From IMG/VR virus record IMGVR_UViG_3300010885_072628: a stretch of 64,000 nucleotides of DNA. One strand, 5' to 3'. The notes beneath the pieces are model-generated. The model saw nothing but the letters and a program-made list of their open reading frames with translations, made no database searches and had not been told where the DNA came from. The DNA comes from a virus (lineage: Duplodnaviria; Heunggongvirae; Uroviricota; Caudoviricetes). Each line of letters opens with the position of its first letter. Position 1 is the first letter of the stretch. The position numbers were made by a program, and so were the translations under genes. Positions 28,099 to 60,891 of this stretch are shown one piece after another.

Positions 28099-28689
28099 AT
28101 GAGCGAAGATGAAAACGATGCTCTTATCGCATACAAAGAAGCTGTTAAGTTAGGAAAGGAATATCCACAGGGTGAATCACAGATTGCAAAGTCTGCTTAT
28201 TATTCTCTAGAATATGCTTTTCTCATCAAGAAGAGATTTAAACTAGGAGAAAAAGCAATATCTAAGTCTCCTCAAGCATCTGTTTTGTATGCTAAGTATT
28301 TTCTACAGGGCAGATTTAAAGCAGGAGAAAAATACATTGCAGAATATCCATATTATACTTGTGCGTATATCGCAGAAGTTTTGAAAGGAAAACAAGAATT
28401 ATCAGCAGATATGCATAGAATAATGTTGAAGAACGGTGTATCAGAAAATGATATTTATTGGGTGAAAGAATATTTTAAATATTGCGAGTATTTGCAAGGA
28501 TTACAGGGTGCTCCATATTGGATAAACTCAAGTGTTGTTTGGGATTATGGAAAAGTTTTCTCTTTTCAAAATTCTACCGTTTGGCCCCACCCAAAAAAAT
28601 TGTACCCTACATCTGTGACGGGGTTTTCCCGTGACGCTCTGCCGGTGCCTTCCAGCTTGCGGTTTTTAAACATGAAACAGGAAAAATAA
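28099..28689 (+). CDS. GRWPEAE-family helical repeat protein (divergent member). C-terminal about 55 aa reads through a promoter-motif copy.
   Basis: Repeats YA..FL.GRF..GEK.I. Family-type end ...IMLKNGVSENDIYWVKEYFKY. Confidence 0.4.
   Translation: MSEDENDALIAYKEAVKLGKEYPQGESQIAKSAYYSLEYAFLIKKRFKLGEKAISKSPQASVLYAKYFLQGRFKAGEKYIAEYPYYTCAYIAEVLKGKQELSADMHRIMLKNGVSENDIYWVKEYFKYCEYLQGLQGAPYWINSSVVWDYGKVFSFQNSTVWPHPKKLYPTSVTGFSRDALPVPSSLRFLNMKQEK
28593..28612 (+). promoter_or_regulatory. copy 4 of the motif (AAAAAAATTGTACCCTACAT)
   Basis: Embedded in the 3' end of ORF 28099..28689, about 80 nt upstream of 28691. Confidence 0.4.
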
Positions 28690-28690
28690 A

Positions 28691-29485
28691 ATGAGTCTCG
28701 CTCCACATTGGGAAGCTCTTCTTTCGCACATGGTATCTACCCCCAGAAGAATTACAGACTTTGGCGATACTCCAGCTAGAGTTCCAGAATTTGAAAGTTA
28801 CATCATTCAAAGTGCTGAACATGCAACTTCTTATGCTGAATCTGTGATTAGAGGTCCGTGGCCAGAAGCTGAAGATATTATTCTTAGCGATATCCAATCA
28901 AGTTTCAAGTATGCTAAAAGCGTTATCAGAGGCCGATGGGAAAAATGCGAAAGTCTCATCGCAACAGATCCTAGTTTAGCTTATGAATACGCCAAATTTG
29001 TTCTGAAAGGTCGCTTTCCTCTTGGCGAAGCTGCTATTGCTACCGATAGCACACAAGCATACAGGTATGCTACGCAAATTCTGAAGAGTCGTTTCATTGA
29101 AGGAGAAGCTGTAATTGCGAGTACAGAAACAGTGAATAGAAATACATTCACTGTGAAGGAGTATAAAGAGATATTTGTCGGTATTCCTAAGTCAAGTGGT
29201 TATGTAGGATGGGCAGGATGGACAGAAGAACAACTTATGCGTTCTCCTTGTTGGATGTATCTATATGCAAAAGAGTGTATGGATGGACGGCTTCCCGACA
29301 CACTTCATAATTCTATGATAGTTTTTGGCATGACAATTCCAGAAAACTATTATGTTAAGAGATACATGAAAGCAAAAAAGTACCACAAAAGAATTAAGCG
29401 TCGTAAGGCAATTGAACTTCCAGAAGTTTTGCAAATTAAAGACGATCCGGTAGATCAGCCAATAGATCGAGAGGAAGCAGTATGA
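28691..29485 (+). CDS. GRWPEAE-family helical repeat protein
   Basis: Tandem about 38-aa repeats (AESVIRGPWPEAEDIILSD; AKSVIRGRWEKCESLIATDP; AKFVLKGRFPLGEAAIATD; ATQILKSRFIEGEAVIAS) and a C-terminal DGRLPDTLHNSMIVFGM. Confidence 0.5.
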   Translation: MSLAPHWEALLSHMVSTPRRITDFGDTPARVPEFESYIIQSAEHATSYAESVIRGPWPEAEDIILSDIQSSFKYAKSVIRGRWEKCESLIATDPSLAYEYAKFVLKGRFPLGEAAIATDSTQAYRYATQILKSRFIEGEAVIASTETVNRNTFTVKEYKEIFVGIPKSSGYVGWAGWTEEQLMRSPCWMYLYAKECMDGRLPDTLHNSMIVFGMTIPENYYVKRYMKAKKYHKRIKRRKAIELPEVLQIKDDPVDQPIDREEAV

Positions 29486-30714
29486 ATCATCCAGAATTTA
29501 ATTCTTACATCGCACAGTATAAAGGCCCGCCAGCCTCTACACCCGCAATGCCGGTAGAGATACAAGATAAAATTATCAATGGAATTTTATCTCCATCTGC
29601 ACCTATTGGATATAGAGAGTTATATCAATTTTGCACACAAATGATTGCAAAAAAAAGATGGATTAGATTTGAGGAAGCTGCTCTTAAAAGCATTAGCGAA
29701 ACGTCTTTTCAAGTTGTCAACAAACACAACACGCTCATTTCGTATGCTAGCAACATTATGCAGAACAGATGGAAAGAAATCGAACAATATATTGAAGATC
29801 CTAATGGGGTGTACGACTACGCTTCCCTTATTTTGAAGGCTAGATGGAGAGAAAAAGAACATATTGTGCTAAAAGGCACAAAAGGCACTTTGAATAAAGA
29901 TTGGTCAGTAGCCACTCGATATGCACATTCATTGTGTGCTGGAAGATGGCTAGAATATGAAAGTGTTCTTATCAACGATAATCCTGATCCTGCTGCTCTT
30001 GCGAACTATGCAAGAAACATTGTAAGAGAAAGATGGCCAGCAGCAGAACCTTTTATTTTGAAAGACATAGATGCATCGTATTTTTATGCCAGAGATGTTA
30101 TCGGAGGCAGGTGGCCAGAAGCAGAACCTATTATTGCACAAGATCCTGTTTTTGCTAAGAGATATGCCGAGCATGTAATACATGGTGCGTTCAAACAAGC
30201 CGAGCCTATTTTGCTAGAAAGTGAGCACTATTTTGATTACTTTTCATTTGCCACACGTTCTAATCGAGATTTGGCCACTAAGTTAGCCACGCAATTTGAT
30301 GAGTCGATGACCGTCAAGCAGGTGCTTGAAATTATTCAAGACGGTAGAAATAAGAGCTTTGAAAACAAACTTCTTAATAGCACTCACGCACACCGAAAAG
30401 CAATTTGGTATGCAAAAGAAGTGCTAAAGGCCAGATGGCCAGAAGCAGAGATTTTTCTTTGTAAAAGTGCTAAATACGGGGTAGAATACGCAAGAGATGT
30501 TATCAAAGGCAGGTGGGAACAAGCTGAGAAAGAGATAGCTAAAAAACCAAATTATCTTTTTCAATATGCTGCACAAGTCATTAAAGGTAGACTTCCAGAA
30601 GTTTTACACAACAGAATGATAGCTCACAGCTTTGTAGACGCTAAATACACCAAAAGATATTTTCAAATGCTGGAAAAAACAGATGAGAGACAGCTATCAG
30701 ATACTGGGGCTTGA
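29482..30714 (+). CDS. GRWPEAE-family helical repeat protein (about 9 repeats)
   Basis: ARDVIGGRWPEAEPIIAQDP, AKEVLKARWPEAEIFLCKS, ARDVIKGRWEQAEKEIAKKP, C-terminal KGRLPEVLHNRMIAHSF. Confidence 0.5.
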   Translation: MNHPEFNSYIAQYKGPPASTPAMPVEIQDKIINGILSPSAPIGYRELYQFCTQMIAKKRWIRFEEAALKSISETSFQVVNKHNTLISYASNIMQNRWKEIEQYIEDPNGVYDYASLILKARWREKEHIVLKGTKGTLNKDWSVATRYAHSLCAGRWLEYESVLINDNPDPAALANYARNIVRERWPAAEPFILKDIDASYFYARDVIGGRWPEAEPIIAQDPVFAKRYAEHVIHGAFKQAEPILLESEHYFDYFSFATRSNRDLATKLATQFDESMTVKQVLEIIQDGRNKSFENKLLNSTHAHRKAIWYAKEVLKARWPEAEIFLCKSAKYGVEYARDVIKGRWEQAEKEIAKKPNYLFQYAAQVIKGRLPEVLHNRMIAHSFVDAKYTKRYFQMLEKTDERQLSDTGA

Positions 30715-31189
30715 AAAAAATGCCACAATAGAAGAAATTAAAAAGGCATATCGTCTAAAAGCTCTAAAATTACATCCTGACGTCAATAAGAGTTTAGATG
30801 CACACAAACTATTCATTGAGCTAAATAACGCCTATAGAACGCTCACAGACCCTAATTATAATAATCAGAAGCCTTCTACTCCTAAATCTTCGAAAACTTA
30901 TACTCCTCCACCACCCAAAAGAGATATCTGGGGCGATCCTATAAGAGAAGATCCGTTGTGGGTGGATAGTATGAAGAGTCATTACGAGAACCCTTCTTTA
31001 CAAATCTTTAAAAAATACAAACGAGAAGAAAAAGAAAAAGAAATAGATTTGTGGCAAAAAATGCCAAAAGATCCCATTTCTTTGTATTGGAAAGAATATG
31101 ATAGGCTAAAAAAAGAAACCGCATACGAAGATCCCGAGGTATTCTGGCAAAAACTAGATGAATTCTGGCAAAAAATAAAAAAGAATTGA
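30683..31189 (+). CDS. J-domain (DnaJ-like) protein
   Basis: YQILGLEKNATIEEIKKAYRLKALKLHPDVN with the HPD motif. Confidence 0.7.
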   Translation: MRDSYQILGLEKNATIEEIKKAYRLKALKLHPDVNKSLDAHKLFIELNNAYRTLTDPNYNNQKPSTPKSSKTYTPPPPKRDIWGDPIREDPLWVDSMKSHYENPSLQIFKKYKREEKEKEIDLWQKMPKDPISLYWKEYDRLKKETAYEDPEVFWQKLDEFWQKIKKN

Positions 31190-31378
31190 CCAGAAAGCCG
31201 ATTTCCGATATGATGCCGTCATGGAATTAGATTGCAATTTTATCGTGAGGTTTTTGCTGTGCATCAAAGAAAAGCGTAAAACTCTATCTTTAGAAGATTC
31301 TTTTAAAGAAATCTCTAAAGATTTCGATATCAGTCCAGAAGAAGCAGAAAAAAAGTATGTTGAAATTAAAGATCTCTT

Positions 31379-32635
31379 ATGGTAAAAGGAAATAACATGA
31401 AATTGAAAATTTTATTGGCTTTGTCTTTAGTAGTGTCGTATGCACTAGTATCTTCTATTGTTTTGAATAATGCTTCTTTCGATACAACCGAACAATCTAT
31501 GAAACAGCTTAATGATGATTCGGGAAATATTACACAAGAACTGAAAAATGAACATATGATCAGAAACAACCTTTACTCTTTAGGATGGATTGGCATTATC
31601 ATGACAGTTATCGCAATTTTCTACAAAGATGTTAAAAAGTATTTTGCATTATCTTCAATGGTTGCATTGCTGTTTTGCACAGGTTGTTGGAAACCTTTCG
31701 AACCTGTAAAGCTAGAGGTAATATCAGCAAATGAGGAGGCTTTTCTTTTGCCTTATCTGGGCGATACAAAAAAGCAGACAAGCAGCGATAATGAGAAATA
31801 TCTGAGCGAGAATCTTGTTTACACAAAGCAGGTCAAGCTACCACAACAGTGGGTTCAAAAAGGATACGACTATATTTGGCCAAATGGAGCTTGGCAAGAT
31901 GCTGCCGTGTTAATCAAGGTGGACAAATCCCCAATAACACGGGAATGGACTGCTGATCCTAATAGCGGAACCAGCAACAGAAATGAGGCCATATGGGTTA
32001 TGACCAGCGACCAAGTTGAGTTTAGCACAGGTTGGACTATTACAGCACGAATTAGCAGTCGAGATGATGCTGTTAGATTTTTGCATAATTATCCTAATGG
32101 GAGTCTTGAGAAAGTATTGGATACAGAAGTCCGTTCAAAGATTCAAACAACATTCGGACTTGAAGTTACAGATTTGCCGATGGAGACATTAAGAAAGAGT
32201 GCAACTCCTCATATTGAAAAAACTGTTAAATCTGTAATTGACTTTTTCAAGGATCGAGGAATCACAATCACTAATCTAGGTATTAGTGGTGGATTTGTGT
32301 ATAAAGATCCAACTATTATGACAACATTGGTGGCTGTGTTTAATGCCGAGCAGCAAAAATCTATAACTGCTGCAAAGAATATGGCTCAAGAAGAAACCAA
32401 CAAGATGAATTTATCGATTCAAAAGACAGAAGCAGATGGCATCAAAATGGTCGCAGATGCTAAATTATATGAGATGGAAAAAGCTGCCGAAAGATTGCCT
32501 GCTTATATCAGTCTCAAGAAAATTGAACTTCAAAAAGAATTGATTGAGAGTTGGGACGGCACTTATCCTAAGACTTTTATGTCTAGTGGGAATCAAGGTC
32601 CAGATATGCTTTTGCAACTTCCCATGGTGGAGTAA
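31379..32635 (+). CDS. SPFH/Band-7 (stomatin/prohibitin/HflC-like) membrane protein
   Basis: N-terminal TM/signal. Band-7 core region. C-terminal coiled coil (AEQQKSITAAKNMAQEETNKM...). Confidence 0.55.
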   Translation: MVKGNNMKLKILLALSLVVSYALVSSIVLNNASFDTTEQSMKQLNDDSGNITQELKNEHMIRNNLYSLGWIGIIMTVIAIFYKDVKKYFALSSMVALLFCTGCWKPFEPVKLEVISANEEAFLLPYLGDTKKQTSSDNEKYLSENLVYTKQVKLPQQWVQKGYDYIWPNGAWQDAAVLIKVDKSPITREWTADPNSGTSNRNEAIWVMTSDQVEFSTGWTITARISSRDDAVRFLHNYPNGSLEKVLDTEVRSKIQTTFGLEVTDLPMETLRKSATPHIEKTVKSVIDFFKDRGITITNLGISGGFVYKDPTIMTTLVAVFNAEQQKSITAAKNMAQEETNKMNLSIQKTEADGIKMVADAKLYEMEKAAERLPAYISLKKIELQKELIESWDGTYPKTFMSSGNQGPDMLLQLPMVE

Positions 32636-32642
32636 GAATCAC

Positions 32643-32861
32643 ATGGACTTTCTATTAACTTTGTTTAAATGCTCCCTAGCATCGTTTCTATCATTCGTCT
32701 TGTTTGTTGGTTTCATAGGTCCATTCTTTGCCAATACTTTTAATTGGCATGGAGATGATCCCACTGCGTTATTCGGTCCAGAGTGGATCTGGAACTATGC
32801 TTTTTTCTGGTCAATAATTTGTTTCTTTGTTTCAGCAATTTTTTTTGGAAGTAAGAGATAA
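32643..32861 (+). CDS. small membrane protein
   Basis: ATG at 32643 just after the upstream stop. Two hydrophobic helices. Confidence 0.3.
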   Translation: MDFLLTLFKCSLASFLSFVLFVGFIGPFFANTFNWHGDDPTALFGPEWIWNYAFFWSIICFFVSAIFFGSKR

Positions 32862-32863
32862 GC

Positions 32864-33265
32864 GTGGCCGAAGATGATTTGAAACTTCGAATAGATAAGA
32901 TTTTTGAAGACGCAATTATCGTATCACGGGTACAATTGGCCGCATTAGATGCTGCCGTCTGCAACCATTATACAAAGGAAGTGAAAATGATAGGCGATTT
33001 GAGTGAATTTGATGACGATACTCTTAAAAAAGAGTTGGCAAAAAGAAAAAAGAAAAAAGAAGAAGAAACAATTCCAAAAGTTTTAAATGATATAGATTGG
33101 ACTAATGTAATACGTCTTGCGGTGAGTGTTAAAGACCAACTGATCGATCAAGGTATGTATGACGAAGATTATGATAATTATATTTTTGAAGAAGTAATGA
33201 AATCTGTTTTTGGTCGAAGATATTTTGATTGGCACCATAAATTTATTCACTTAAAAGGAAATTGA
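32864..33265 (+). CDS. hypothetical protein
   Basis: 133-aa ORF (GTG start per track). Confidence 0.3.
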   Translation: MAEDDLKLRIDKIFEDAIIVSRVQLAALDAAVCNHYTKEVKMIGDLSEFDDDTLKKELAKRKKKKEEETIPKVLNDIDWTNVIRLAVSVKDQLIDQGMYDEDYDNYIFEEVMKSVFGRRYFDWHHKFIHLKGN

Positions 33266-33266
33266 A

Positions 33267-34091
33267 ATGATTGAAGTATATTCGGAACTAACAAAAGAAA
33301 AACTGCCCGTGGAATTTATGAACTTTCCAGATAATGAGAGTTTTGTTAAATTTGACTATAACGGGGGACCTTTAAACATTGTTTGGAAATATGAAAATGA
33401 TAGCGAATTAATTAGTTTGGCATTGTTGTATGATGTTATTAGTCAGAATCGTTGTTCGATAGTTAATCTCTTTATTCCTTATTTTCCACACGCACGACAA
33501 GATAGAGAAGAAGTTAAAAGTCAACCTTTCTCTTTAAGAGTTGTATCTGAATTTGTGAACGAGTTCTTAATAGGTGATTTGTGCGTCTGCTTAGATGTTC
33601 ATTCCGATGTTCTGGAGACAACAATGGTCATGGAGTTTGAGAACATCCCAAGTTCAAATTATTCTGACAGCATCGATACAAAGTATGATTATATTATTTG
33701 TCCAGATAAAGGGGCTATGAATAGGTGTGAATCTTGGGGCGAAAAAAGAAATACGCCAGTTCTATATTGCCAAAAAAATCGTGATCCTTCAACGGGCAAA
33801 CTGAGCGATCCTATTATTCCAGATATTGATTTATCTAATAAAAGAGTTTTATTGGTAGATGATATTGGAACAGGGTTTGGTACTCATGTTATGCTGGCAA
33901 ATGTGTTCCATGGAAAGCATCAAAATCTTGTTATGGATTTATGGGTTACTCACGCATCTTTCGTCAGAGGCAAGGAAATGGTATTACGTGTTTTCAATCA
34001 TGTTTATACCACAGATAGCTTGAAGGGTGCCACCCAACAAAACTCTGACAAAATTACAGTTTTTGATTGCACGAAATACTTTTTTAACTAA
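33267..34091 (+). CDS. ribose-phosphate pyrophosphokinase (Prs) homolog. Candidate ADP-ribose pyrophosphokinase (Adps) of a NARP1-type NAD+ reconstitution pathway.
   Basis: IPYFPHARQDR (Prs IPYFGYARQDR), CLDVHSD (DLHA), VLLVDDIGTGFGT (PRPP-binding loop, divergent from DDMIDTGGT), VTHASF. Confidence 0.7.
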   Translation: MIEVYSELTKEKLPVEFMNFPDNESFVKFDYNGGPLNIVWKYENDSELISLALLYDVISQNRCSIVNLFIPYFPHARQDREEVKSQPFSLRVVSEFVNEFLIGDLCVCLDVHSDVLETTMVMEFENIPSSNYSDSIDTKYDYIICPDKGAMNRCESWGEKRNTPVLYCQKNRDPSTGKLSDPIIPDIDLSNKRVLLVDDIGTGFGTHVMLANVFHGKHQNLVMDLWVTHASFVRGKEMVLRVFNHVYTTDSLKGATQQNSDKITVFDCTKYFFN

Positions 34092-34102
34092 GGAATAACA
34101 AA

Positions 34103-35569
34103 ATGGAAGTTCTCCCAATTTTGCTTTCGGACAGCTACAAACAATTTCACTGGATGATGTATCCAAATGGTATTACACGCCTTTATAGCAATTTCACTCC
34201 TCGTAGTTTCAAACACTTAGGATGTGACAAGGCTGTATTTTTTGGTCTACAATACTATATCAAGGAGTATATTCTGGGTCAGTGGCAAAGAAACTTCTTT
34301 GATAAGCCACTAAATGAAGTAGCACAAGAATACCAAAGATTTCATAAACATTTTAGTTTTTATGATATGCCAGTAGAGCATATTACTAAGCTTCACAATC
34401 TTGGTTATCTACCAATAAAAATTAAAGCACTTCCAGAAGGTTGTCTTGTTAATGAAAAGATTCCATTTTTTACAATCACAAACACCCATGATGATTTTGC
34501 ATGGTTAGTTAATTTTCTTGAAACTCAAATTAGCACAAGCATTTGGGACTGTTGTGTTGTTGCTACTATTGCAAGACAATATCGAACTCTATTAAATAAT
34601 CATGCCAATAAGACTTGTGATAATAAAGATTTTGTTCAATGGCAGGGACATGATTTTAGTCAACGAGGAAGAAGTAGTACAGAAAGCACTTTTAATCAAG
34701 CGGGTCATTTGCTAAGTTTTACCGGCACGGATACTATTCCTAGTGTTTTTATGCTAGAGAAATATTATAATGCTGATATTACCAAAGAATTAGTAGGAAG
34801 CAGCGTTCCAGCGAGCGAACACAGTATTCAAACAAGTTATGGTAAAGAAAATGAAATTGATGGATTTATAAGAATTCTGGACAGATTCCCAAGCGGTATT
34901 GTCAGTATTGTTAGTGACAGTTTTGATCTCTGGGAAGTCTGTACAACTTTTGTAACCAAACTTAAAGATAAAATTTTATCTAGAGATGGAAAGCTAGTCA
35001 TTAGGCCAGATAGTGGTAATCCTGTTGACATTGTTTGTGGTGCTATAGAACAAGAATGGCAAAACGAACAAGCAACACTTCCACAAGAAAAAGGTGTTGT
35101 TGAACTTCTTTGGGATGTTTTTGGAGGAACAATTAACGAGAAAGGATATAAAGTTCTTGATCCTCATATTGGAGTAATCTACGGAGATAGTATTTCTCTT
35201 GAAAGAGCAGACGCTATTTGCAAAAGACTAGAGCGAAAAGGATTTGCTAGCAGCAATATTGTGTTTGGTATTGGCAGCTACACCTATAACCACAATACCA
35301 GAGATAGTTTGGGAATTGCTGTTAAAAGTACATACTGTGAGGTTGATGGAGAAAAGAGAAATATTTTTAAAGATCCCGTAACGGATGATGGAGTTAAGAA
35401 GTCTGCACGGGGGTTATTGAAAGTAGTTAAAGAAAATAATGAATATGTTTTGTATGATCAGGTTAGTGATCTCGAAGAAACTCAGGGTGAATTAACAACA
35501 GTTTTTGAAAATGGAAAACTTTTGGTAGATCATAAATTGAGCGATATTAGAGAAAGGTTGTGGAAATAA
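34103..35569 (+). CDS. nadV: nicotinamide phosphoribosyltransferase family protein (NadV/NAMPT; Namat-like)
   Basis: 488 aa, collinear with NAMPT: FFGLQYYIKEY, LPIKIKALPEG, GHDFSQRG, FTGTDT, SVPASEHS, IVSDSFD, IRPDSGNP, IYGDSI, NIFKDPV. Confidence 0.85.
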   Translation: MEVLPILLSDSYKQFHWMMYPNGITRLYSNFTPRSFKHLGCDKAVFFGLQYYIKEYILGQWQRNFFDKPLNEVAQEYQRFHKHFSFYDMPVEHITKLHNLGYLPIKIKALPEGCLVNEKIPFFTITNTHDDFAWLVNFLETQISTSIWDCCVVATIARQYRTLLNNHANKTCDNKDFVQWQGHDFSQRGRSSTESTFNQAGHLLSFTGTDTIPSVFMLEKYYNADITKELVGSSVPASEHSIQTSYGKENEIDGFIRILDRFPSGIVSIVSDSFDLWEVCTTFVTKLKDKILSRDGKLVIRPDSGNPVDIVCGAIEQEWQNEQATLPQEKGVVELLWDVFGGTINEKGYKVLDPHIGVIYGDSISLERADAICKRLERKGFASSNIVFGIGSYTYNHNTRDSLGIAVKSTYCEVDGEKRNIFKDPVTDDGVKKSARGLLKVVKENNEYVLYDQVSDLEETQGELTTVFENGKLLVDHKLSDIRERLWK

Positions 35570-35570
35570 T

Positions 35571-51802: not shown

Positions 51803-51875
51803 TGTCCGGTAGCTTAATTGGTTGAGCAAGGGATTTTGGTTCCCTAGGTTGCAAGTTCGAGTCTTGCCCGGACAT
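51803..51875 (+). tRNA. tRNA-Gln (anticodon UUG)
   Basis: Manual fold: acceptor TGTCCGG/CCGGACA (7 bp), U8A9, D-arm GCT/AGC, anticodon stem AGGGA/TCCCT with loop TTTTGGT (UUG), variable loop AGGTT, T-arm GCAAG-TTCGAGT-CTTGC, discriminator T. No encoded CCA. Confidence 0.8.
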
Positions 51876-51879
51876 CTAC

Positions 51880-53799: not shown

Positions 53800-53801
53800 A
53801 T

Positions 53802-54619: not shown

Positions 54620-54757
54620 AAAAATAATTATCCATACTCTATTGTTTTTAGTTGCAGTTAGCTTAACATTAAAAATCTTCCCCAAAACGGAGGCGATGTA
54701 GGTGAAAATCCTACACTGCAACTATTAAAAATAACAAGGAATAAAAAAGGAATAAAA

Positions 54758-55234: not shown

Positions 55235-55691
55235 GAAGTATAGAGATTTGATTGTCGTGATTTTATTGCTTTTATCGCTTTTATTAGTTTATTTTTTACC
55301 AAATTATAGTTTGTATGATTATTTAAAATCAAAGAGAATAGATTATTTGAAATCAAAGAGACTAGAAAATCTAAAAAATAAAGAAGAAAAAAAATACGTT
55401 TTAGTTGTTTGTGAAACATGTAATGGAACTGGAGAAACCGAGCAAGACATAAATTTGCTCATGCTTCAAGCGTCATTCTCCGTGTGGTACAACATCCACA
55501 TCACATCAGATAAGTGTGAAAAATGCTCTAAAGACAAATTTTGCGAAACGGCTAAAAAAAGATATGATGAAATAATGGATCGGTACAAAAATCTTGAGCC
55601 AAGAAAAGAAGCGGCAAACTGTCCCGACTGCATGGGAATGGGGAGCTATAAGCAACACGAAGGATTTAGAACTGGAACAGAAAAGTTATGA
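55227..55691 (+). CDS. membrane-anchored protein with DnaJ-type CxxCxGxG zinc-finger motifs
   Basis: N-terminal TM. CETCNGTGE and CPDCMGMGS. Confidence 0.35.
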   Translation: MFEKYRDLIVVILLLLSLLLVYFLPNYSLYDYLKSKRIDYLKSKRLENLKNKEEKKYVLVVCETCNGTGETEQDINLLMLQASFSVWYNIHITSDKCEKCSKDKFCETAKKRYDEIMDRYKNLEPRKEAANCPDCMGMGSYKQHEGFRTGTEKL

Positions 55692-55860
55692 ACTCTTTAG
55701 AAAAAATTAACGATCATCATTACAGAAGTCCAGATGGGTATTTTTTGTTTAGACCTGACACTCGTGCTAATTGTTGGGTCTTTATTCCTTTTGAAAAAGA
55801 ATTTGATAGCGACAAGCTATTGAGCATATTTAATACGTTGAAACAACTGGAGAGCGAGAA

Positions 55861-56568
55861 GTGAGTTACACATTAAGAACAATACCGCTGGGTCTCAGAT
55901 TTTTATATCAAAAAGGCTCAGAAATACATGTTGGATACGTGCAGGAACGATCTCCTTCAGGCGATTGGGTGTGGGTTTGGCGGGAGTCTGGTGATAGTGC
56001 TTGGTATTTCTGCGGATGTATGAGTTACTGGGGAATCCGCCGAGACGACAATCTTCCTTGCATAGATTTATTAGAGGTGTTAGATGATGAAGATGAAGAT
56101 TATGAAGATCGTCGTGAAGTAGAATATCAAGAAAAGCAGGAACATTTAAAAGATATAAAATCTATATTAGAAGAACAAAGCCCAAGTAAAATTCAAAAAG
56201 AATTACTTCGAGGAATAGATTTTCATCAAAAAGCACTTAAATTTGCAAAAAAGTATAGAGAGGATACTACCGATACGATCTTGTATTTTCCAACACAAGG
56301 TGTGATGCAGCCAAATATTTTTCAAGTCGTAGATAATTTGTCATATTTTTCTACAGATGAAATTCACTTATTAATTTCTTCTGAAAATTATGTAGAAAGA
56401 ACATCTTGTGGTGAGCCTATAATAACCAGAGAAGAAGACGGAACTTTAACATCTATCATCGATGTAGCAGCGAGTCAGCTATCATTATTGATTTCTGGTG
56501 AGTGGGAGCTTCCAGATGGATGGGATATTAAAAAATACAAAATTTTGTATAAAAAGAACGTAGAGTAA
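55861..56568 (+). CDS. hypothetical protein
   Basis: 235-aa ORF (GTG start per track). Confidence 0.3.
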   Translation: MSYTLRTIPLGLRFLYQKGSEIHVGYVQERSPSGDWVWVWRESGDSAWYFCGCMSYWGIRRDDNLPCIDLLEVLDDEDEDYEDRREVEYQEKQEHLKDIKSILEEQSPSKIQKELLRGIDFHQKALKFAKKYREDTTDTILYFPTQGVMQPNIFQVVDNLSYFSTDEIHLLISSENYVERTSCGEPIITREEDGTLTSIIDVAASQLSLLISGEWELPDGWDIKKYKILYKKNVE

Positions 56569-56588
56569 GCTACAAAGAAAGTGGGTGT

Positions 56589-56774
56589 ATGCTATTGCCT
56601 TTTATTTTTTATTTTTCACAATCTTTAGAAATCCCTGAGTATATTCCTAAAAATAAATATGCTCAACATGTCCCGTACGAATTTCTAGGAAGTGTGCAAG
56701 AAAAAAATAAAGGCATAATGGAATACAATCCGATAGAGAAGTTGATTGAAAAGCAGAACGAAAAAATAAAATGA
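56589..56774 (+). CDS. hypothetical small protein (doubtful)
   Basis: 61-aa ORF. Confidence 0.2.
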   Translation: MLLPFIFYFSQSLEIPEYIPKNKYAQHVPYEFLGSVQEKNKGIMEYNPIEKLIEKQNEKIK

Positions 56775-57559
56775 CTAGAATAATTGATTGTTTTATTTTC
56801 TACAACGAATTAGACTTGCTAAAATATAGACTTGATTTGTTAAATGATGTTGTAGATTATTTTGTAATTGTTGAATCTACGCATACTTTTGTTGGAAAAG
56901 AAAAAAGGCTATTTTTCAACGAAAACAAACATCTATTTGATAGTGAAAAAATAATCCATATTATTGTGGATGATTTTCCATATAAACATCCTAACAATGT
57001 GGATGTTTGGCAAAATGAATATTTTCAAAGGAATGCTATTCAAAGAGGAATAGATCTAGTAAAAGATATATCCGATGAAGATGTAATAATACTATCAGAT
57101 GCAGATGAAATTCCTGATCCACACACTTTGATCAAAATCAAAAAAGGCGATATATTAGTTGATCTTCATACGCTTCAAATGGATTTGTACTATTATAATT
57201 TAAATACAATATTTCAAAGTAAATGGACTTTATGTAAAATTGTATCGTATAAAAAATACAAGGAATTAAATATCAGTTGCAACGATATTAGAAATAAAAA
57301 GTGTGATGAAGAAATCTTAAATGGTGGATGGCATTTATCTTATTTTGGCGACAAGCACTTTATTCAAAATAAGATTCAAAATTTCTCACATCAGGAACTC
57401 AATAACTCAGAGTATACGGAGTTAGATAAAATTGAAGAAAGAATGAATAATTCTAAAGATTTATATGATAGAAATTACTTAGATATGAGTTATATAAAAA
57501 TAGAAGATAACAAGTATTTGCCTAAAGATTATCAAAAGCTAGTTGGATTTTATATATGA
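56771..57559 (+). CDS. glycosyltransferase family 17-like (GnT-III-like)
   Basis: IIDCFIFYNELDLLKYRLDLLNDVVDYFVIVESTHTFVGKEKRLFF matches the GT17 F.NELDLLE.RL..L...VD.FVIVES..TF.G..K.L signature. Confidence 0.6.
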   Translation: MTRIIDCFIFYNELDLLKYRLDLLNDVVDYFVIVESTHTFVGKEKRLFFNENKHLFDSEKIIHIIVDDFPYKHPNNVDVWQNEYFQRNAIQRGIDLVKDISDEDVIILSDADEIPDPHTLIKIKKGDILVDLHTLQMDLYYYNLNTIFQSKWTLCKIVSYKKYKELNISCNDIRNKKCDEEILNGGWHLSYFGDKHFIQNKIQNFSHQELNNSEYTELDKIEERMNNSKDLYDRNYLDMSYIKIEDNKYLPKDYQKLVGFYI

Positions 57560-57789
57560 ACATTTGTGCAACTACTGGCAAGACCATATATTCTGACGAG
57601 AAGCAAGCTGCTAAAGGTCTAGACAGAATGGTTGAACGAGTTCCAGATTATGATGGCGAGCCTTATTATTGTTTGTATTGTGCCAACTATCATTTCGGAA
57701 GAAGAAAAGATAGAGTCAAAAAAAAAAAGAAAAAGAACTTAGATGTTTGGGTTCTTAGAAAAACAAATTTCTCCTTCTTCATCTACTGA
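57556..57789 (+). CDS. hypothetical small protein
   Basis: 77-aa ORF. Contains a homopolymer run (A10GA5). Confidence 0.25.
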   Translation: MNICATTGKTIYSDEKQAAKGLDRMVERVPDYDGEPYYCLYCANYHFGRRKDRVKKKKKKNLDVWVLRKTNFSFFIY

Positions 57790-58044
57790 AATTAAAACTT
57801 TGTTTTCTAGAAAGTTTTTCAATAGTATTGTTCCAACTCTTGCACATGTAGCCCATTGAACAACTTTCATTGCCTCTGATACTGCATCGCCGTGATTTTT
57901 GTTGTTAATAATGAAGTTTTGTAAAACCTGCTTAACTTCTTCCTCAGAAAGAGCAATATATTTGTTTTCTTCTTCGCACCAATATAGATCATCTGCTGCG
58001 ATTATGTTGTTCAGTGTTGCTAGATATTTTTCGTAATTTTCCAT
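57739..58044 (-). CDS. hypothetical protein
   Basis: 101-aa ORF, convergent with the long operon. Confidence 0.35.
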   Translation of the reverse strand: MENYEKYLATLNNIIAADDLYWCEEENKYIALSEEEVKQVLQNFIINNKNHGDAVSEAMKVVQWATCARVGTILLKNFLENKVLISVDEEGEICFSKNPNI

Positions 58045-58237
58045 TGTTTTCTCCTATAACTATTCTAGTTATATCTGGAGAAAATACAATTGGAAAAAAT
58101 AAAAATATTATTATTATTGTCGCTTTTGTTTCTTTGTTTTGTTTTTGCTTATAGCGAGTCTTTATTTCATATGATTTTGTCGATATGTATAATGGATTTT
58201 TTTATTTTTTGTTTAGCTAGATTTTTTGAAGAATACG

Positions 58238-58822
58238 TTAAATCCAAAGACTGAGTGGGCACCATATTTTATTGCTTATTCCTATCTTCCTTAATCCTAG
58301 ATTCACCCAATTATTACATGTGTTAATACAATTGTATTTTAAGTTTGATTTGAAATATGTGCCATTTTGGTAATCGGTTTTCTTTTTTTCTATTGGTTGC
58401 AGGTCTGAGATAGAGGAATCTACATACTTTTTAAGTATATTTAATTGGTTTTCATTTATTTTATATTTTTTAATTTTCTTTTTTGGCGTTTCATTTATGT
58501 GTTCTATTCTTACAACTGTTTGGTTGAGACCGAAGAATGCTTTGATGAAATCTATAGCTTTTAATTCGTTCCATGATTGTATTTCCAAGAATATTCTCTT
58601 ATCTCCCCAGCCAAACATTGTGTATTGCATGTCTGTTGAGATGTTTAAATGTTTTGATTCAATCATAAAATCAGAATGGATTGCATCTTTGATTACAAAT
58701 AGATCTATATTTCCATTTGTTGATTTTAATGTAAATGGATATCTGAGAAAAAAAGATATTAGGCACAAAACTCCGTACAATACAAACAGAGGGCTTAAAA
58801 TGAGTAGAAGTATTTTATCCAT
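58238..58822 (-). CDS. membrane protein (N-terminal TM)
   Basis: MDKILLLILSPLFVLYGVLCLISFFL. Preferred over the overlapping + strand ORF 58497..58838. Confidence 0.4.
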   Translation of the reverse strand: MDKILLLILSPLFVLYGVLCLISFFLRYPFTLKSTNGNIDLFVIKDAIHSDFMIESKHLNISTDMQYTMFGWGDKRIFLEIQSWNELKAIDFIKAFFGLNQTVVRIEHINETPKKKIKKYKINENQLNILKKYVDSSISDLQPIEKKKTDYQNGTYFKSNLKYNCINTCNNWVNLGLRKIGISNKIWCPLSLWI

Positions 58823-58910
58823 TCTGTTATTTAGATAGGCAATTTCAAAATTTGATTTTTATGCCCTATCAGGGGTTTGCCTTGTCGTCTGCAAATAAGC
58901 GGCGGCGGCT

Positions 58911-58956
58911 AATTTCAAAATTTGATTTTGCTCGAAAAAAATTGTACCCTATAAGC
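58911..58956 (+). promoter_or_regulatory. copy 6 of the motif (AAAAAAATTGTACCCTATAAGC), with an upstream AATTTCAAAATTTGATTTTG. A second copy of that upstream element lies at 58838-58858.
   Basis: Core 58935-58956. Heads the second GRWPEAE-family cluster. Confidence 0.45.
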
Positions 58957-59001
58957 GGAGGAGCACACTGGTTTGTTTCGCCTTATTCATTGTAGAGGAA
59001 A

Positions 59002-59391
59002 ATGATGGATGATTGCCTAAAGGTCTCGGACCCATTAGGAATTTTGTGTAGATCAAAAAGAGGTTATGGCCAAGAGCCATGGTACGAAACTATAAGGATT
59101 TTGAATCAAATGACGCCAACAGAAGCGTATTATTACTTCATGGTCGAGATAACTGATCCTCTGACTCAGTGGGCAAGAATTAGTGATAAAAAAGCTACAG
59201 AGATTGAGGACATCATAATGACTGATTCGTATGAGATCTGGAGATATGCCAGAGATTTTAAAAAGGGTAGACTACCAGACAAGATGCACAATATGATGTT
59301 GTTACATGCTATAGAGAATCCAGATAGATCATGTGTAAGAAACTATTTTAATTTGATCAATGATAAAAACAAAATAACGCCACACGGCTGA
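59002..59391 (+). CDS. GRWPEAE-family small protein (one repeat plus an RLPDKMHNMM C-terminal module)
   Basis: QMTPTEAYYYF...IEDIIMTDSYEIWRYARDFKKGRLPDKMHNMMLLHAIENPDRSCVRNYF. Confidence 0.45.
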   Translation: MMDDCLKVSDPLGILCRSKRGYGQEPWYETIRILNQMTPTEAYYYFMVEITDPLTQWARISDKKATEIEDIIMTDSYEIWRYARDFKKGRLPDKMHNMMLLHAIENPDRSCVRNYFNLINDKNKITPHG

Positions 59392-59558
59392 GTCTCCTGC
59401 GAAAAGCGCTGGGAGGAGAGTATTTAATGACACCACAAAAAATGTTAGATGTTCCAGCATGTAGAGCATTTCACGAAACGTGCAGATATGCCAGAAGTTA
59501 CTGGTCTGGTTTTAAACTTTTTTAACTATATGTAAAAAAATTATTTTGAGTTTATCAA

Positions 59559-60014
59559 ATGACACTAACATGCACATGCGAGATTTGTAAGCGTCTCGAA
59601 GAGATCTTGCCGGCGAGTTTTCTCTCCCGACTTTCACGTACTCGTACAATTAACCACGAGGATGAAGCTAATCGAGTACACGATACACGTGTGACGCTTG
59701 TATTGGACTCCTTCAATACAGCATTAGCTGATGGTTTTTCAATTGGTAAAAGATCACCAGAACTTGAAGACATTATTGCGACTATTCCGTGTACTGCTAC
59801 CGAGTATGCTATAAAAATAATTAATGGCAGATGGGAGAAAGCAGAAGATGTCATTATGACTGATTCAGCCAACAGCAACTCTTACTCCAGATATGCCATT
59901 AAAGACAAACTACCGGACAAGATGCACAAGATGATGTTGTTACATGCAATCAAAAATCCAAAAGATGACCATGTAATAGATTATTTTCAGAGATGCTATA
60001 CGAAATCCAAATGA
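59559..60014 (+). CDS. GRWPEAE-family small protein
   Basis: RSPELEDIIATIP...AIKIINGRWEKAEDVIMTDS...IKDKLPDKMHKMMLLHAIKNPKDDHVIDYF. Confidence 0.45.
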   Translation: MTLTCTCEICKRLEEILPASFLSRLSRTRTINHEDEANRVHDTRVTLVLDSFNTALADGFSIGKRSPELEDIIATIPCTATEYAIKIINGRWEKAEDVIMTDSANSNSYSRYAIKDKLPDKMHKMMLLHAIKNPKDDHVIDYFQRCYTKSK

Positions 60015-60047
60015 TGATTATGTAAAAGACTATTTCGAGTTTATCAA

Positions 60048-60347
60048 ATGACACCAGAAGAAGCATACTTAAAAGCTTGGCGTGCTGGTAAAAGATTGCC
60101 AGAACTTGAAAGTATTGTGCTAACCAGTCCAGAGAATTCCTGCTGTTATGCTATCGGCATTATCAAAAGCAGATGGGTTGAAGCCGAAGATCTCATAATA
60201 ACTGATTCGAATTTATCTCTAGTCTACGCTAGATACGCAATCAAAGACAAACTCCCAGAAAAGATGCACAATATGATGATACTATACGCTATACGAAATC
60301 CAAATGATGATTGTGTAAAAGACTATTTCGAGTGGGTGAATACATGA
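60048..60347 (+). CDS. GRWPEAE-family small protein
   Basis: MTPEEAY...RLPELESIVLTSP...IIKSRWVEAEDLIITDS...KLPEKMHNMMILYAIRNPNDDCVKDYF. Confidence 0.45.
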   Translation: MTPEEAYLKAWRAGKRLPELESIVLTSPENSCCYAIGIIKSRWVEAEDLIITDSNLSLVYARYAIKDKLPEKMHNMMILYAIRNPNDDCVKDYFEWVNT

Positions 60348-60538
60348 TGATTGGTGAAGTTAAAAAGTGGGCAAAAGCAAAGGGTTACGAGGTTAAGAAT
60401 TCCAATGGTGGTTATTCTTGGCGAAAAGACTCAGAAGCTGAAACGAAGTGGTCTTGTGATGTCGATAATTTGGTAAAAGACATATTCAACCACGCTACAG
60501 ACAACAAGTGGTTAGAGTATCAGAAAAAAAATCAATGA
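60311..60538 (+). CDS. hypothetical small protein
   Basis: 75-aa ORF between family members. Confidence 0.3.
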   Translation: MCKRLFRVGEYMMIGEVKKWAKAKGYEVKNSNGGYSWRKDSEAETKWSCDVDNLVKDIFNHATDNKWLEYQKKNQ

Positions 60539-60891
60539 CACCAATACAAGCATACGAAACAGCAAAATTACTAGGAGAACGATTGCCAGAACTTGAAAGT
60601 TGTATACTGACAAGTTCTCATTATAGTTATTTCTATGCCCTAGATATAATTAAAGGTAGATGGCCTGAAGCAGAAGATGTTATAATGGAAAGTCAAAAAA
60701 TGTCTCTGCTTTATGCGGTATTCTTAATCAAAGGTAGACTGCCAGAGAAAATGCACAACATGATGATTTTATATGTTGTGCAAGACAGTAAAGACTGGGC
60801 GGCGGAATACTTTAGATTCCTAGAAGGCACTTCGCATCGCCGGCCGCATTCTGCGATTCCTTGCCAGCCTGCGTGGGTACTACTTCCATAA
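60535..60891 (+). CDS. GRWPEAE-family small protein
   Basis: MTPIQAY...RLPELESCILTSS...IIKGRWPEAEDVIMESQ...GRLPEKMHNMMILYVV. ATG at 60535. Confidence 0.45.
   Translation: MTPIQAYETAKLLGERLPELESCILTSSHYSYFYALDIIKGRWPEAEDVIMESQKMSLLYAVFLIKGRLPEKMHNMMILYVVQDSKDWAAEYFRFLEGTSHRRPHSAIPCQPAWVLLP

What the first reader, a model, noticed from the sequence alone, without database searches (positions are those of the whole stretch)
28099..60891. Expanded GRWPEAE helical-repeat protein family in two promoter-headed clusters (28.1-30.7 kb and 59.0-60.9 kb)
Seven genes plus fragments share an approximately 38-aa repeat A..YA..VI(K/R)GRWPEAE..I...P and a C-terminal module GRLP(D/E)KMHNMM(I/L)L.AI.NP.D....YF. 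Sizes range from 1 repeat (about 100 aa) to about 9 repeats (410 aa). Recombination scars are visible. One is a 32-aa start-fragment MTPQKMLDVPACRAFH at 59426. Another is an out-of-frame duplicate of the C-terminal coding segment, AIRNPNDDYVKDYFEFIK, at 59995-60051, fused into the end of 59559..60014. I do not recognise the repeat as TPR, Sel1 or ankyrin. Rapidly diversifying repeat families in phages commonly bind host factors.
Basis: seen in the sequence. Interest (0 to 1): 0.6.

Follow-up and report, generated by a model that had tools for sequence, protein, structure and literature searches.

The report
Phage family of 26-residue helical-repeat proteins
A large uncultured phage carries seven genes, plus broken copies, for small soluble proteins built from a previously undescribed 26-amino-acid helical repeat; the family is very common in uncultured phages, has no known function, and most likely acts as a set of custom binding proteins.

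Summary
The family is real. Seven + strand genes are homologous: 28099-28689, 28691-29485, 29482-30714, 59002-59391, 59559-60014, 60048-60347 and 60508-60891.

Corrections to the finding:
- The repeat period is 26 aa, not about 38.
- Cluster 1 is not headed by its own promoter. It sits inside an operon behind a RuvB-like AAA+ gene.
- A 12-mer, TTCAAAATTTGA, occurs exactly three times in the window, upstream of both clusters' operons.
- The window copies are old paralogues under purifying selection, not rapidly diversifying ones.

The family is large: 9,129 clusters at E<=1e-10. It is nearly confined to uncultured phages and often forms tandem gene arrays of up to 18 copies. Scaffold residues are almost invariant, while six positions on the exposed face of helix A are hypervariable.

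Best reading: a repertoire of modular binding proteins, probably directed at host proteins. The targets are unknown.

The parts
28099..28689 (+). Gene A, 196 aa. It has about 3 degenerate 26-aa units, the C-terminal module (YIAEVLKGKQELSADMHRIML..VKEYF) and a 65-aa tail. It starts 2 nt after the RuvB-like gene.
   Evidence: E 1.5e-14 to the mini-protein HMM. Orthologue in L001 at 8646-9173, 45.5% identity.
28691..29485 (+). Gene B, 264 aa. It has a half N-terminal unit, 4 canonical units, a 40-aa insert and the C-terminal module (YAKECMDGRLPDTLHNSMIVFG..VKRYM).
   Evidence: Orthologue in L001 at 9249-9992, 45.8% identity.
29482..30714 (+). Gene C, 410 aa. It has about 9 units in two blocks (residues 86-245 and 306-373) separated by a helical insert, followed by the C-terminal module. 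It overlaps B by 4 nt.
   Evidence: AlphaFold model with pLDDT 85.8, all-alpha solenoid. 764 database relatives. Orthologue P0011 in L001, 43.7% identity.
59002..59391 (+). Gene D, 129 aa. The family-homologous part starts at the internal MTPTEAY (59110). It has an N-cap, a degenerate unit and the C-terminal module. The 59002 ATG has a GAGGA Shine-Dalgarno sequence, so the true start is ambiguous.
   Evidence: E 4e-42.
59416..59562 (+). Internally deleted, frame-broken copy. It consists of the gene-junction/start sequence with the 32-aa ORF MTPQKMLDVPACRAFHETCRYARSYWSGFKLF (59427-59525), an RYAR piece (59481-59495) and the tail KNYFEFIK* (59536-59562), which overlaps F's ATG.
   Evidence: families D10, D12, D14. 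Comparable 34- to 76-aa deletion forms occur in the array of relative L092.
59559..60014 (+). Gene F, 151 aa. A 54-aa N-terminal stretch is unrelated to the family. From residue 55 it has an N-cap half unit, one canonical unit and the C-terminal module.
   Evidence: E 4e-52.
59995..60051 (+). Out-of-frame duplicate of a G-type 3' end, AIRNPNDDYVKDYFEFIK*. Its TGA overlaps G's ATG (ATGA). It lies 49 nt after F's own copy of the same segment and is a recent recombination scar.
   Evidence: 59995-60040 is 98% identical to 60288-60333; i-E 5.3e-7.
60048..60347 (+). Gene G, 99 aa. This is the minimal architecture: N-cap (MTPEEAYLKAWRAGKRLPELESIVLTS), one unit (..YAIGIIKSRWVEAEDLIITD) and the C-terminal module.
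   Evidence: (14 database clusters of G-like minis).
60508..60891 (+). Gene H, 127 aa from the GTG. The probable start is the ATG at 60535 (MTPIQAY). It has the same architecture as G plus a 20-aa tail.
   Evidence: E 5.5e-55.
26312..26328 (+). Palindromic motif AATTCAAAATTTGAATT, 50 nt upstream of a TTGACA-16-TAAAAT site (26361-26388). It heads the operon ORF 26454 - RuvB-like - A - B - C - DnaJ.
58841..58929 (+). Two exact copies of AATTTCAAAATTTGATTTT (58841-58859 and 58911-58929), 70 nt apart, in the intergenic region upstream of cluster 2.
   Evidence: (family D13).

Best explanation
The two clusters encode soluble members of a large, phage-restricted and so far unnamed family of alpha-solenoid proteins.

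Anatomy of the unit. The building block is a 26-residue helix-turn-helix unit.
- Helix A covers positions 1-12, consensus P-x-x-A-x-x-Y-A-x-x-V-I.
- A K-G-R-W turn follows.
- Helix B covers positions 17-23, consensus P-E-A-E-P-x-I.
- An x-K-D linker closes the unit.
- The stack has an N-cap (MTPxxAY..A..GKRLPELE..IL) and a conserved C-cap (GRLP-E/D-KMHNMMIL.AI.NP.D..VK.YF).

Constraint pattern. The scaffold residues A4, Y7, A8, V11, I12, G14, R15, W16, P17, E18, E20 and I23 are nearly invariant. Positions 2, 3, 5, 6, 9 and 10 are hypervariable and rich in aromatic residues. On a helical wheel these six lie opposite the conserved face of helix A.

Proposed function (inferred). Each protein presents a row of such faces as a custom binding surface. 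The paralogues, from about 100 to 410 aa, form a repertoire of binders with different specificities. The most likely targets are host proteins, bound for takeover or to counter defences.

Family evolution. The family grows and shrinks by tandem gene duplication, by unequal recombination at the conserved gene junction (..YFEFIK* overlapping ATG ACN CC) and by gain or loss of whole units. This leaves the truncated and frame-shifted remnants seen at 59416-59562 and 59995-60051.

Shown here: homology, the 26-aa period, the fold class, the distribution, and the constraint pattern. Inferred: binding as the function. Speculative: host proteins as targets.
For: - Homology and completeness of the set in the window.
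- 26-aa period and consensus from 759 units.
- Fold: the AlphaFold model of C has pLDDT 85.8, with helices of about 12 and about 7 residues alternating every 26. A second model, of a relative with an N-terminal domain, has pLDDT 93.7 and the same repeat geometry.
- Entropy: 3.1-4.1 bits at positions 2, 3, 5, 6, 9 and 10, against 0-1.3 at scaffold positions. The same pattern appears in 18 aligned mini-proteins that include G, H and F.
- Codon analysis: scaffold dN/dS is 0.13-0.21, against 0.54-0.83 on exposed helix-A codons, in the window and in two related arrays. In the 18-gene array of L008 the variable positions give about 1.6, by a crude estimate.
- Tandem arrays of paralogues with varying unit number occur in many phage contigs: L008 18 genes, L092 at least 12, L090 9, and L015, L006 and L040 6 each.
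- Soluble and near neutral: no 19-residue window exceeds a Kyte-Doolittle mean of 1.0, and pI spans 4.6-9.8.
- Phage-restricted: 9,129 clusters at E<=1e-10 among 1.84 billion representatives, and 123 relatives in IMG/VR. Only 10 stretches, all on MAG contigs, were found in 185,579 species genomes.
- The genes are maintained, not junk: A, B and C have orthologues at 44-46% identity in a 444-kb relative.
Against: - No partner, ligand or phenotype is known for any member, and the host is unknown.
- Strong conservation of R15, W16, E18 and E20 could mark a functional ladder rather than pure scaffold. I had no model coordinates to check this.
- dN/dS never clearly exceeds 1 in the window's lineage because synonymous sites are near saturation. 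Relaxed constraint on exposed positions, without any selected specificity, is therefore not excluded.
- The very high conservation of the C-terminal module suggests that part of the function lies there, not on the variable face.
Confidence: 0.5

Rival explanations
1. They are virion-associated (internal or ejected) proteins delivered into the cell with the DNA, rather than proteins made and acting only inside the infected cell.
For: More than half of the database relatives listed carry a roughly 230-aa N-terminal domain with a G(T/S)xWC motif in front of the repeats. The same domain without repeats is in PA5oct EST35_0205, which was detected in virions by ESI-MS/MS and sits next to the terminase-like gene 0204 and other structural genes. 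In some T4-like contigs an N-domain member sits beside a homologue of structural protein 0206.
Against: None of the window's seven proteins, and nothing else in the 64-kb window or in L001, has that N-terminal domain. The window genes lie among accessory and metabolic genes (RuvB-like, DnaJ, NAMPT, RlaP), not structural modules. The evidence concerns the N-domain, not the repeats.
Confidence: 0.12
2. They are sequence-specific nucleic-acid binders in the manner of PUF, PPR or TALE proteins, with one unit reading one base through the variable positions.
Confidence: 0.08
3. They are adaptors. The invariant C-terminal module docks on one common machine, such as the neighbouring RuvB-like AAA+ ATPase, the DnaJ/DnaK chaperone system or a host protease, and the variable face brings different clients to it.
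For: The C-terminal module is the most conserved part of all window paralogues and of the mini-arrays. Cluster 1 lies between a RuvB-like AAA+ gene and a J-domain gene. The order RuvB-like then A, B, C is kept in the 444-kb relative L001.
Against: The J-domain gene is not conserved in L001. The 595-kb phage LR756511 has the RuvB-like gene but no repeat genes within 8 kb on either side. No non-family neighbour is shared across 75 loci. The mini-arrays of L090 and L092 sit in unrelated contexts. A conserved cap may simply be needed to fold a very short solenoid.
Confidence: 0.1
4. The small ORFs of cluster 2 are decaying, non-functional copies, and the apparent family is a by-product of repetitive DNA.
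For: Cluster 2 contains at least two broken copies and a frame-shifted duplication. F has an unrelated 54-aa N-terminus.
Against: D, F, G and H keep open frames despite saturated synonymous divergence, with omega 0.27-0.43 overall and 0.13 on scaffold codons. G has 85%- and 50-64%-identical counterparts in other metagenomes. Relatives keep 9 to 12 or more intact copies.
Confidence: 0.03

Closest known systems
HEAT and HEAT-like repeats (for example the PP2A A subunit, symplekin, PBS-lyase/EZ-type HEAT)
De novo designed helical repeat proteins (DHR49, circular tandem repeat proteins, Zn-HEHE-22)
   Different: They are artificial proteins, so there is no evolutionary relation. The resemblance only shows that the natural repeat is unusually short and regular.
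PUF / PPR / TALE modular nucleic-acid binders
   Different: From general knowledge, those units are 33-36 aa and PUF has three helices per unit. The present family has near-neutral charge with invariant acidic residues. There is no significant sequence match.
Ankyrin-repeat and other repeat multigene families of large DNA viruses, and DARPin-type binders
   Same: Evolutionary behaviour and logic are the same: tandemly duplicated paralogues, variable unit number, a conserved scaffold and variable surface positions.
   Different: The fold and unit differ. From general knowledge, ankyrin units are 33 aa with a beta-hairpin/loop. There is no ankyrin Pfam match. The hosts here are prokaryotic.
Pfam DUF4116 (PF13475)
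   Same: It is a short helical repeat of unknown function with a Y-A-containing motif (my recollection). One relative, P0053, reaches the Pfam cut-off at 26.4 bits against 24.9.
   Different: That match is a single 24-aa stretch ahead of the canonical units. No window protein matches, and DUF4116 is not among the 25 families most often matched by the 55 relatives. No profile-profile comparison could be run.
phrog_28193 (Salicola phage SCTP-2 gp435, ASV44450.1)
   Same: It is the only isolate phage in the 50,697-record phage collection whose match reaches the repeat units. It has the G-x-x-WC N-terminal domain followed by two units (YRYAKKTGKRFEEGEDVI.., YFYAKNILKDRFYKAE).
   Different: It is 648 aa and mostly other sequence, and its function is unknown. 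The window proteins lack its N-terminal domain. Window protein H matches only the repeat part, at E 0.017.

Membership tests
Unnamed 26-aa 'YA..VIKGRWPEAE' repeat family (defined here from 759 units) | Tandem units with a 26-residue period carrying Y7, A8, R15, W/F16 and E20 | tested here: met
   Unit spacings of 26 in B, C and H. 16 units found by HMM in the window. Consensus and entropy.
Unnamed 26-aa 'YA..VIKGRWPEAE' repeat family (defined here from 759 units) | Significant full-length sequence similarity to other members | tested here: met
   C has 764 hits at E<=1e-3, with the best non-identical hit at 2.5e-92. G has 14 hits down to 3.7e-22.
Unnamed 26-aa 'YA..VIKGRWPEAE' repeat family (defined here from 759 units) | N-terminal roughly 230-aa domain with the G(T/S)xWC motif (present in 73 of the 134 family proteins examined) | tested here: not met
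   The N-domain HMM gives no hit at E<=10 in any window ORF or in L001. The window genes belong to the repeat-only subgroup with the LPExxHNxMI C-cap.
HEAT repeat | Two antiparallel helices per unit forming a solenoid | tested here: met
   [not shown]
HEAT repeat | Unit length of about 37-47 aa and a match to HEAT-type profiles | tested here: not met
   The period is 26 aa. No HEAT-type Pfam family appears among the matches.
TPR / Sel1 | 34-aa (TPR) or 36-44-aa (Sel1) unit with a profile match | tested here: not met
   No hit for the window proteins. TPR_7 matches only 6 of 55 relatives, best E 2.3e-4.
Ankyrin repeat | 33-aa unit, helix-loop-helix plus beta-hairpin, with a profile match | tested here: not met
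   No Pfam Ank match. The model of C has no strands at all.
PUF / PPR RNA-binding repeats | 35-36-aa units, a profile match and a basic RNA-binding surface | tested here: not met
   [not shown]
DUF4116 (PF13475) | Score above the Pfam gathering threshold | tested here: not met
   None of the window proteins reaches it. One relative, P0053, scores 26.4 against 24.9 on a single 24-aa stretch. A profile-profile test was not possible with these tools.
Known anti-phage defence proteins (PADLOC) | Match to any PADLOC model | tested here: not met
   No hit for A, B, C, G, H or P0035.
T4 Frd.3 (PF05798), HTH_35 (PF13693), Complex1_51K (PF01512) | A domain-level match that passes on its own | tested here: not met
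   In every protein inspected the best stretch is 16-50 aa inside the repeat region, and no stretch passes alone. T4 Frd.3 itself shares only the local string IIRNRYPELSI.

The most novel reading that the evidence does not exclude
The family is a natural, phage-encoded counterpart of designed repeat binders. Each phage would carry a heritable library of miniature solenoid proteins, from 4 copies here to 18 in other phages. Their hypervariable helix-A faces would each neutralise a different host protein, for example components of different defence systems. The library would be reshuffled by unequal recombination at a conserved gene junction. This would be a new and very widespread class of phage counter-defence or takeover proteins, and a new minimal scaffold for protein engineering.
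Probability: 0.2. Interest if true: 0.8.

Novelty: new variant of a known kind. Interest (0 to 1): 0.58.

Why it matters
- Scale: at E<=1e-10 the family has 9,129 clusters (50% identity) among 1.84 billion representative proteins. It still has no Pfam, NCBIfam or functional PHROG entry, no solved structure and no mention in the searchable literature. It is a sizeable piece of phage 'dark matter'.
- Structure: as far as I know, its 26-residue unit is shorter than the units of the named helical-repeat classes. Its closest structural matches are de novo designed repeat proteins.
- Function: an invariant scaffold, a hypervariable helix face and tandem arrays of up to 18 paralogues are the signature of a binder repertoire. 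If the targets are host defence or regulatory proteins, this would be a common and unrecognised phage strategy. The roughly 100-aa members would also be attractive minimal binder scaffolds.
- Annotation: defining the repeat also allows these genes to be annotated in thousands of phage contigs.

Tried and rejected
- Pfam, PHROGs, NCBIfam and PADLOC scans of the window proteins and relatives gave no curated family.
- The recurring Pfam names in relatives (Complex1_51K, Phage_FRD3, HTH_35, DUF982, IBN_N, YunG-like) were rejected. In the proteins inspected their best stretch is 16-50 aa within the repeats and no stretch passes alone. T4 Frd.3 was read directly and shares only one short string.
- megablast and tblastn of C against 50,697 phage records gave nothing.
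- A consensus-like relative, P0035, matched isolate phages through its N-terminal domain. Only the SCTP-2 match extends into the repeats.
- A PDB sequence-profile search gave no relative.
- Literature searches for the motif strings and for jumbo-phage repeat families found nothing relevant.
- A conserved-neighbour analysis over 75 loci found no shared non-family partner.
- The DnaJ and RuvB-like links do not generalise.
- The DNA-mimic idea was rejected because the proteins are not acidic.
- A membrane or secreted location was rejected on hydropathy.
- The exact-sequence look-up of the window's own contig failed, so the sample and environment of the window are unknown.
- The 12-mer upstream motif was not found in the fetched loci of the related phages (L001, L090-L093); its only two matches are single sites in unrelated loci L005 and L022.

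Full report
**1. What is in the window**

Seven family genes lie on the + strand.
- A: 28099-28689, 196 aa
- B: 28691-29485, 264 aa
- C: 29482-30714, 410 aa
- D: 59002-59391, 129 aa
- F: 59559-60014, 151 aa
- G: 60048-60347, 99 aa
- H: 60508-60891, 127 aa

A 32-aa ORF, E, lies at 59427-59525.

All-vs-all blastp shows clear homology: F-G 105 bits, G-H 100, B-C 86, C-H 72, D-G 62, A-H 45. An HMM built from D, F, G and H hits exactly these seven window ORFs, with E from 1.9e-56 to 1.5e-14. The next ORF scores E=0.39. A repeat-unit HMM run on the six-frame translation finds 16 units. All are on the + strand and lie only within 28270-30600 and 59787-60690. The family is real and the list of members is complete for this window.

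**2. The repeat**

Successive Y-A anchors are 26 residues apart in B, C and H. This also holds in 759 distinct units taken from database relatives.

The consensus is P-x-x-A-(Y)-x-Y-A-(R)-(D)-V-I-K-G-R-W-P-E-A-E-P-x-I-(A)-K-D.

The small proteins have three parts:
- an N-cap that is itself a half unit, MTPxxAY..A..GKRLPELE..IL(T)
- zero or one canonical unit
- a C-terminal module that begins as a unit (YA..VIKGR/K) but continues LP(D/E)KMHNMM(I/L)L.AI.NP.D..VK.YF

A has about 3 units, B about 5 and C about 9, each ending in the same module.

**3. The scars**

- The frame +1 peptide AIRNPNDDYVKDYFEFIK* lies at 59995-60051, and its TGA overlaps G's ATG.
- Its DNA, 59995-60040, is 45/46 identical to G's own 3' end, 60288-60333. 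It lies 49 nt after F's own, more diverged copy of the same segment.
- This makes it a recent unequal-recombination product. The surrounding paralogues, by contrast, are saturated at synonymous sites.
- The same gene junction, ..TATTTYGAGTTTATCAAATGACAC (..YFEFIK* overlapping ATG ACN), recurs just before F. 59535-59565 is 90% identical to 60024-60054. This leaves a second tail remnant, KNYFEFIK*, at 59536-59562.
- The start of E, 59416-59441, is 77% identical to G's start. 59481-59495 repeats D's W-R-Y-A-R codons.
- E plus this tail is therefore an internally deleted copy spanning 59416-59562.
- Related arrays contain the same kinds of deletion forms, of 34, 72 and 76 aa.

**4. Promoters and operons**

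A starts 2 nt after the stop of a RuvB-like AAA+ gene at 26969-28096. That gene matches Pfam AAA at 2e-11 and RuvB_N at 1e-9. B and C follow A with a 1-nt gap and a 4-nt overlap, and a J-domain gene overlaps the end of C. Cluster 1 is therefore internal to a longer transcription unit.

The best sigma-70-like site is TTGACA-16-TAAAAT at 26361-26388. Such sites are not enriched over shuffles.

What the two clusters share is a palindromic element. AATTCAAAATTTGAATT lies at 26312, and AATTTCAAAATTTGATTTT occurs twice, at 58841 and 58911. Its 12-mer core, TTCAAAATTTGA, occurs exactly three times in the window, only at these sites and always on the + strand. It is a candidate shared regulatory element, and its role is untested. 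It is absent from the fetched loci of the related phages (L001, L090-L093); the only two matches among all fetched loci are single sites in L005 and L022.

**5. Fold**

AlphaFold2 was run on C with 54 homologues. It gives pLDDT 85.8 and pTM 0.67, and the model is all-alpha. In the regular part, helices of about 12 and about 7 residues alternate every 26 residues, for example H196-207, H212-218, H222-233 and H238-245.

Aligning the consensus to these helices puts positions 1-12 in helix A, K13-W16 in the turn, 17-23 in helix B and 24-26 in the linker. At 100 degrees per residue:
- the conserved positions 4, 7, 8, 11 and 12 span one arc (240 to 20 degrees)
- the variable positions 2, 3, 5, 6, 9 and 10 span the opposite arc (40 to 200 degrees)

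This is reasoning from the sequence. I had no model coordinates.

- Foldseek against the PDB gives no hit with E below 0.1.
- The AFDB library was unavailable.

**6. Not a curated family**

- Pfam: no significant hit for the seven proteins.
- PHROGs: only weak hits to unnamed families.
- NCBIfam: none.
- PADLOC: none.
- PDB sequence profile: only weak designer-PPR hits (best E 2.9e-4) in which no stretch passes alone.
- Relatives collect many unrelated Pfam names, such as Complex1_51K, Phage_FRD3, HTH_35, DUF982 and IBN_N. In every protein I inspected, the best stretch is 16-50 aa inside the repeats and no stretch passes on its own. T4 Frd.3, read directly, shares only IIRNRYPELSI.
- One relative reaches the DUF4116 threshold on a single 24-aa stretch. 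That lead could not be tested by profile-profile comparison.
- No paper in the library contains the motif strings.

**7. Distribution**

C has 764 relatives at E<=1e-3 in the 5.8-billion-protein set. All are unnamed or 'hypothetical' apart from one generic transcriptional-regulator label.

A profile search of 1.84 billion cluster representatives finds 15,479 proteins at E<=1e-3, 9,129 at E<=1e-10 and 1,853 at E<=1e-30. The longest reach 2,253 aa and are made of a dozen fused modules.

IMG/VR holds 123 relatives on 74 loci. Many lie on contigs of 100-480 kb. Others lie on T4-like contigs, judged by eye from gp32-, gp23-, gp21- and gp18-like neighbours.

I scanned 185,579 species-representative genomes with a DNA pattern for two adjacent units. 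It found only 10 stretches, all on MAG contigs.

Among 50,697 phage records, only Salicola phage SCTP-2 gp435 (phrog_28193) has recognisable units, two of them, behind an N-terminal domain.

The window itself looks like part of a very large phage.
- It carries a sigma-factor-like gene, an HNH endonuclease, NAMPT with PRPP synthetase, a tail-fibre-like 1285-aa protein and one tRNA.
- Its RuvB-like protein is 68% identical to that of a 444-kb JGI contig and 45% identical to that of the 595-kb uncultured phage LR756511.

**8. Architecture in the wider family**

73 of the 134 family proteins I examined carry a roughly 230-aa N-terminal domain with an invariant G-T-x-W-C motif, followed by 5-12 units. 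Its AlphaFold model is confident (pLDDT 93.7) but has no structural relative.

The same domain without repeats is in PA5oct EST35_0205, a virion protein by mass spectrometry. The window and L001 have no such domain. The window genes belong to a repeat-only subgroup marked by the LPExxHNxMI C-cap.

**9. Tandem arrays and constraint**

Tandem arrays of paralogues are typical of the family.
- L008 has 18 consecutive genes of 123-362 aa with 2-11 units. They have nearly identical 60-aa N-termini and ATGA-coupled junctions.
- L015, L006 and L040 have 6 genes each.
- For the G-type minis, relatives L090 and L092 have 9 and at least 12 tandem copies. The window's cluster 2, with four intact copies plus remnants, is a small and partly eroded array of this kind.
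- The flanking genes differ between these phages.
- No non-family neighbour is shared across 75 loci.

Per-position entropy over 759 units is 3.1-4.1 bits at positions 2, 3, 5, 6, 9 and 10 (and 3.3 at position 22), against 0-1.3 at scaffold positions. In 18 aligned minis, including G, H and F, the scaffold is almost invariant. The variable patches fall exactly at those helix-A positions of both units, plus a patch in the N-cap.

| Set | dN/dS, scaffold codons | dN/dS, exposed helix-A codons | pS |
|---|---|---|---|
| Window minis and arrays L090, L092 | 0.13-0.21 | 0.54-0.83 | 0.53-0.70 |

These are Nei-Gojobori estimates. The paralogues are old, so omega above 1 cannot be shown.

In the younger L008 array, a crude all-pairs estimate gives 1.6 at the variable positions and 1.1 elsewhere. 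The pairs are not independent and no significance is claimed.

Window pairs D, F, G and H are 33-56% identical, with omega 0.27-0.43. A, B and C have one-to-one orthologues at 44-46% identity in L001. The window copies are maintained genes, not fast-evolving ones.

**10. Physical properties**

No hydrophobic segment is present: the maximum Kyte-Doolittle 19-residue mean is 1.0. The pI of family members ranges from 4.6 to 9.8 with a median of 6.7. Mean net charge per unit is -0.07, and aromatic content is 7-16%.

These values fit soluble cytoplasmic proteins. They argue against a DNA mimic and against a strongly basic nucleic-acid binder.

**11. Interpretation**

The best-supported reading is a repertoire of modular binding proteins on a new, very short alpha-solenoid scaffold.
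- Shown: homology, period, fold class, phage restriction, arrays, and the scaffold-versus-surface constraint pattern.
- Inferred: that the variable helix-A face is a ligand-binding surface.
- Speculative: that the ligands are host proteins involved in takeover or counter-defence.

The rivals are virion or ejected proteins, nucleic-acid readers, adaptors to an AAA+ or chaperone machine through the conserved C-cap, and decaying junk. Each is weighed in its own section of this report. None is favoured by the evidence for the window's genes.

**12. Verdict**

- the period is 26 aa
- cluster 1 lies inside the RuvB-like operon
- the two clusters share an upstream palindromic element rather than demonstrable promoters

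The thing is a new variant of a known kind: an alpha-solenoid repeat protein with a previously undescribed unit. It belongs to a very large phage family that nobody has characterised.

Noticed in passing
window 26312-26328, 58841-58859, 58911-58929: A palindromic element, A(A/T)TTCAAAATTTGA(A/T)TT. Its 12-mer core occurs exactly three times in the 64-kb window, all on the + strand and all upstream of the two operons that hold the repeat genes. It is absent from the fetched loci of related phages L001 and L090-L093.
   Followed up: partly
window 60311-60538: An unrelated 75-aa ORF, probably starting at MMIGEVKKWAKAKGYEV.., sits between G and H. It widens the G-H spacing to 487 nt, against 342 nt between F and G.
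   Followed up: no
L008 (IMGVR_UViG_3300035181_001867) 359-12366: Eighteen consecutive paralogues of the family, with 2-11 units each, nearly identical 60-aa N-termini and ATGA-coupled junctions. 102 of the 103 units are distinct.
   Followed up: partly
P0135, P0142, P0143 (database proteins, 1,675-2,253 aa): Giant proteins made of up to about 13 fused modules (N-cap, 3-5 units, C-cap) joined by lysine-rich linkers. They look as if whole gene arrays had been fused into one ORF. They could be real polyproteins or the result of gene calling under a different genetic code.
   Followed up: no
[not shown]
   Followed up: partly
L078, L080, L081 (contigs WJMJ01000105, WJMJ01000145 and WJMJ01000154 of a Promethearchaeota MAG, RBin_111): Three contigs binned into one Asgard-archaeon MAG carry family members with 4-7 units. 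This could reflect a virus of that archaeon or a binning artefact.
   Followed up: no
window 26969-28096: The RuvB-like AAA+ ATPase is 68% identical to that of a 444-kb JGI contig (L001) and 45% identical to that of the 595-kb uncultured phage LR756511.1. This places the window in a lineage of very large phages.
   Followed up: partly
window 33267-35569: An NAD-salvage pair: ribose-phosphate pyrophosphokinase (33267-34091) followed by nicotinamide phosphoribosyltransferase (34103-35569).
   Followed up: no
window 19684-24499: A glycan-related block: two glycosyltransferases (19684-20523 on the - strand, 20459-21331 on the + strand) and a UDP-galactopyranose mutase (23414-24499).
   Followed up: no
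window 8604-9569; 6182-7072; 51803-51876; 61162-62049; 58238-58822 (- strand): Other features seen: a sigma-factor-like protein, an HNH endonuclease, a tRNA-Gln(TTG), an RlaP-type nucleotidyltransferase and a DUF2459 protein that is divergent from cluster 2.
   Followed up: no
L092 2615-3400: The phage that carries the 12-gene mini-array also has a separate B/C-like member of 261 aa a few kb upstream. The pairing of 'long members plus a mini-array' therefore recurs in another phage.
   Followed up: no
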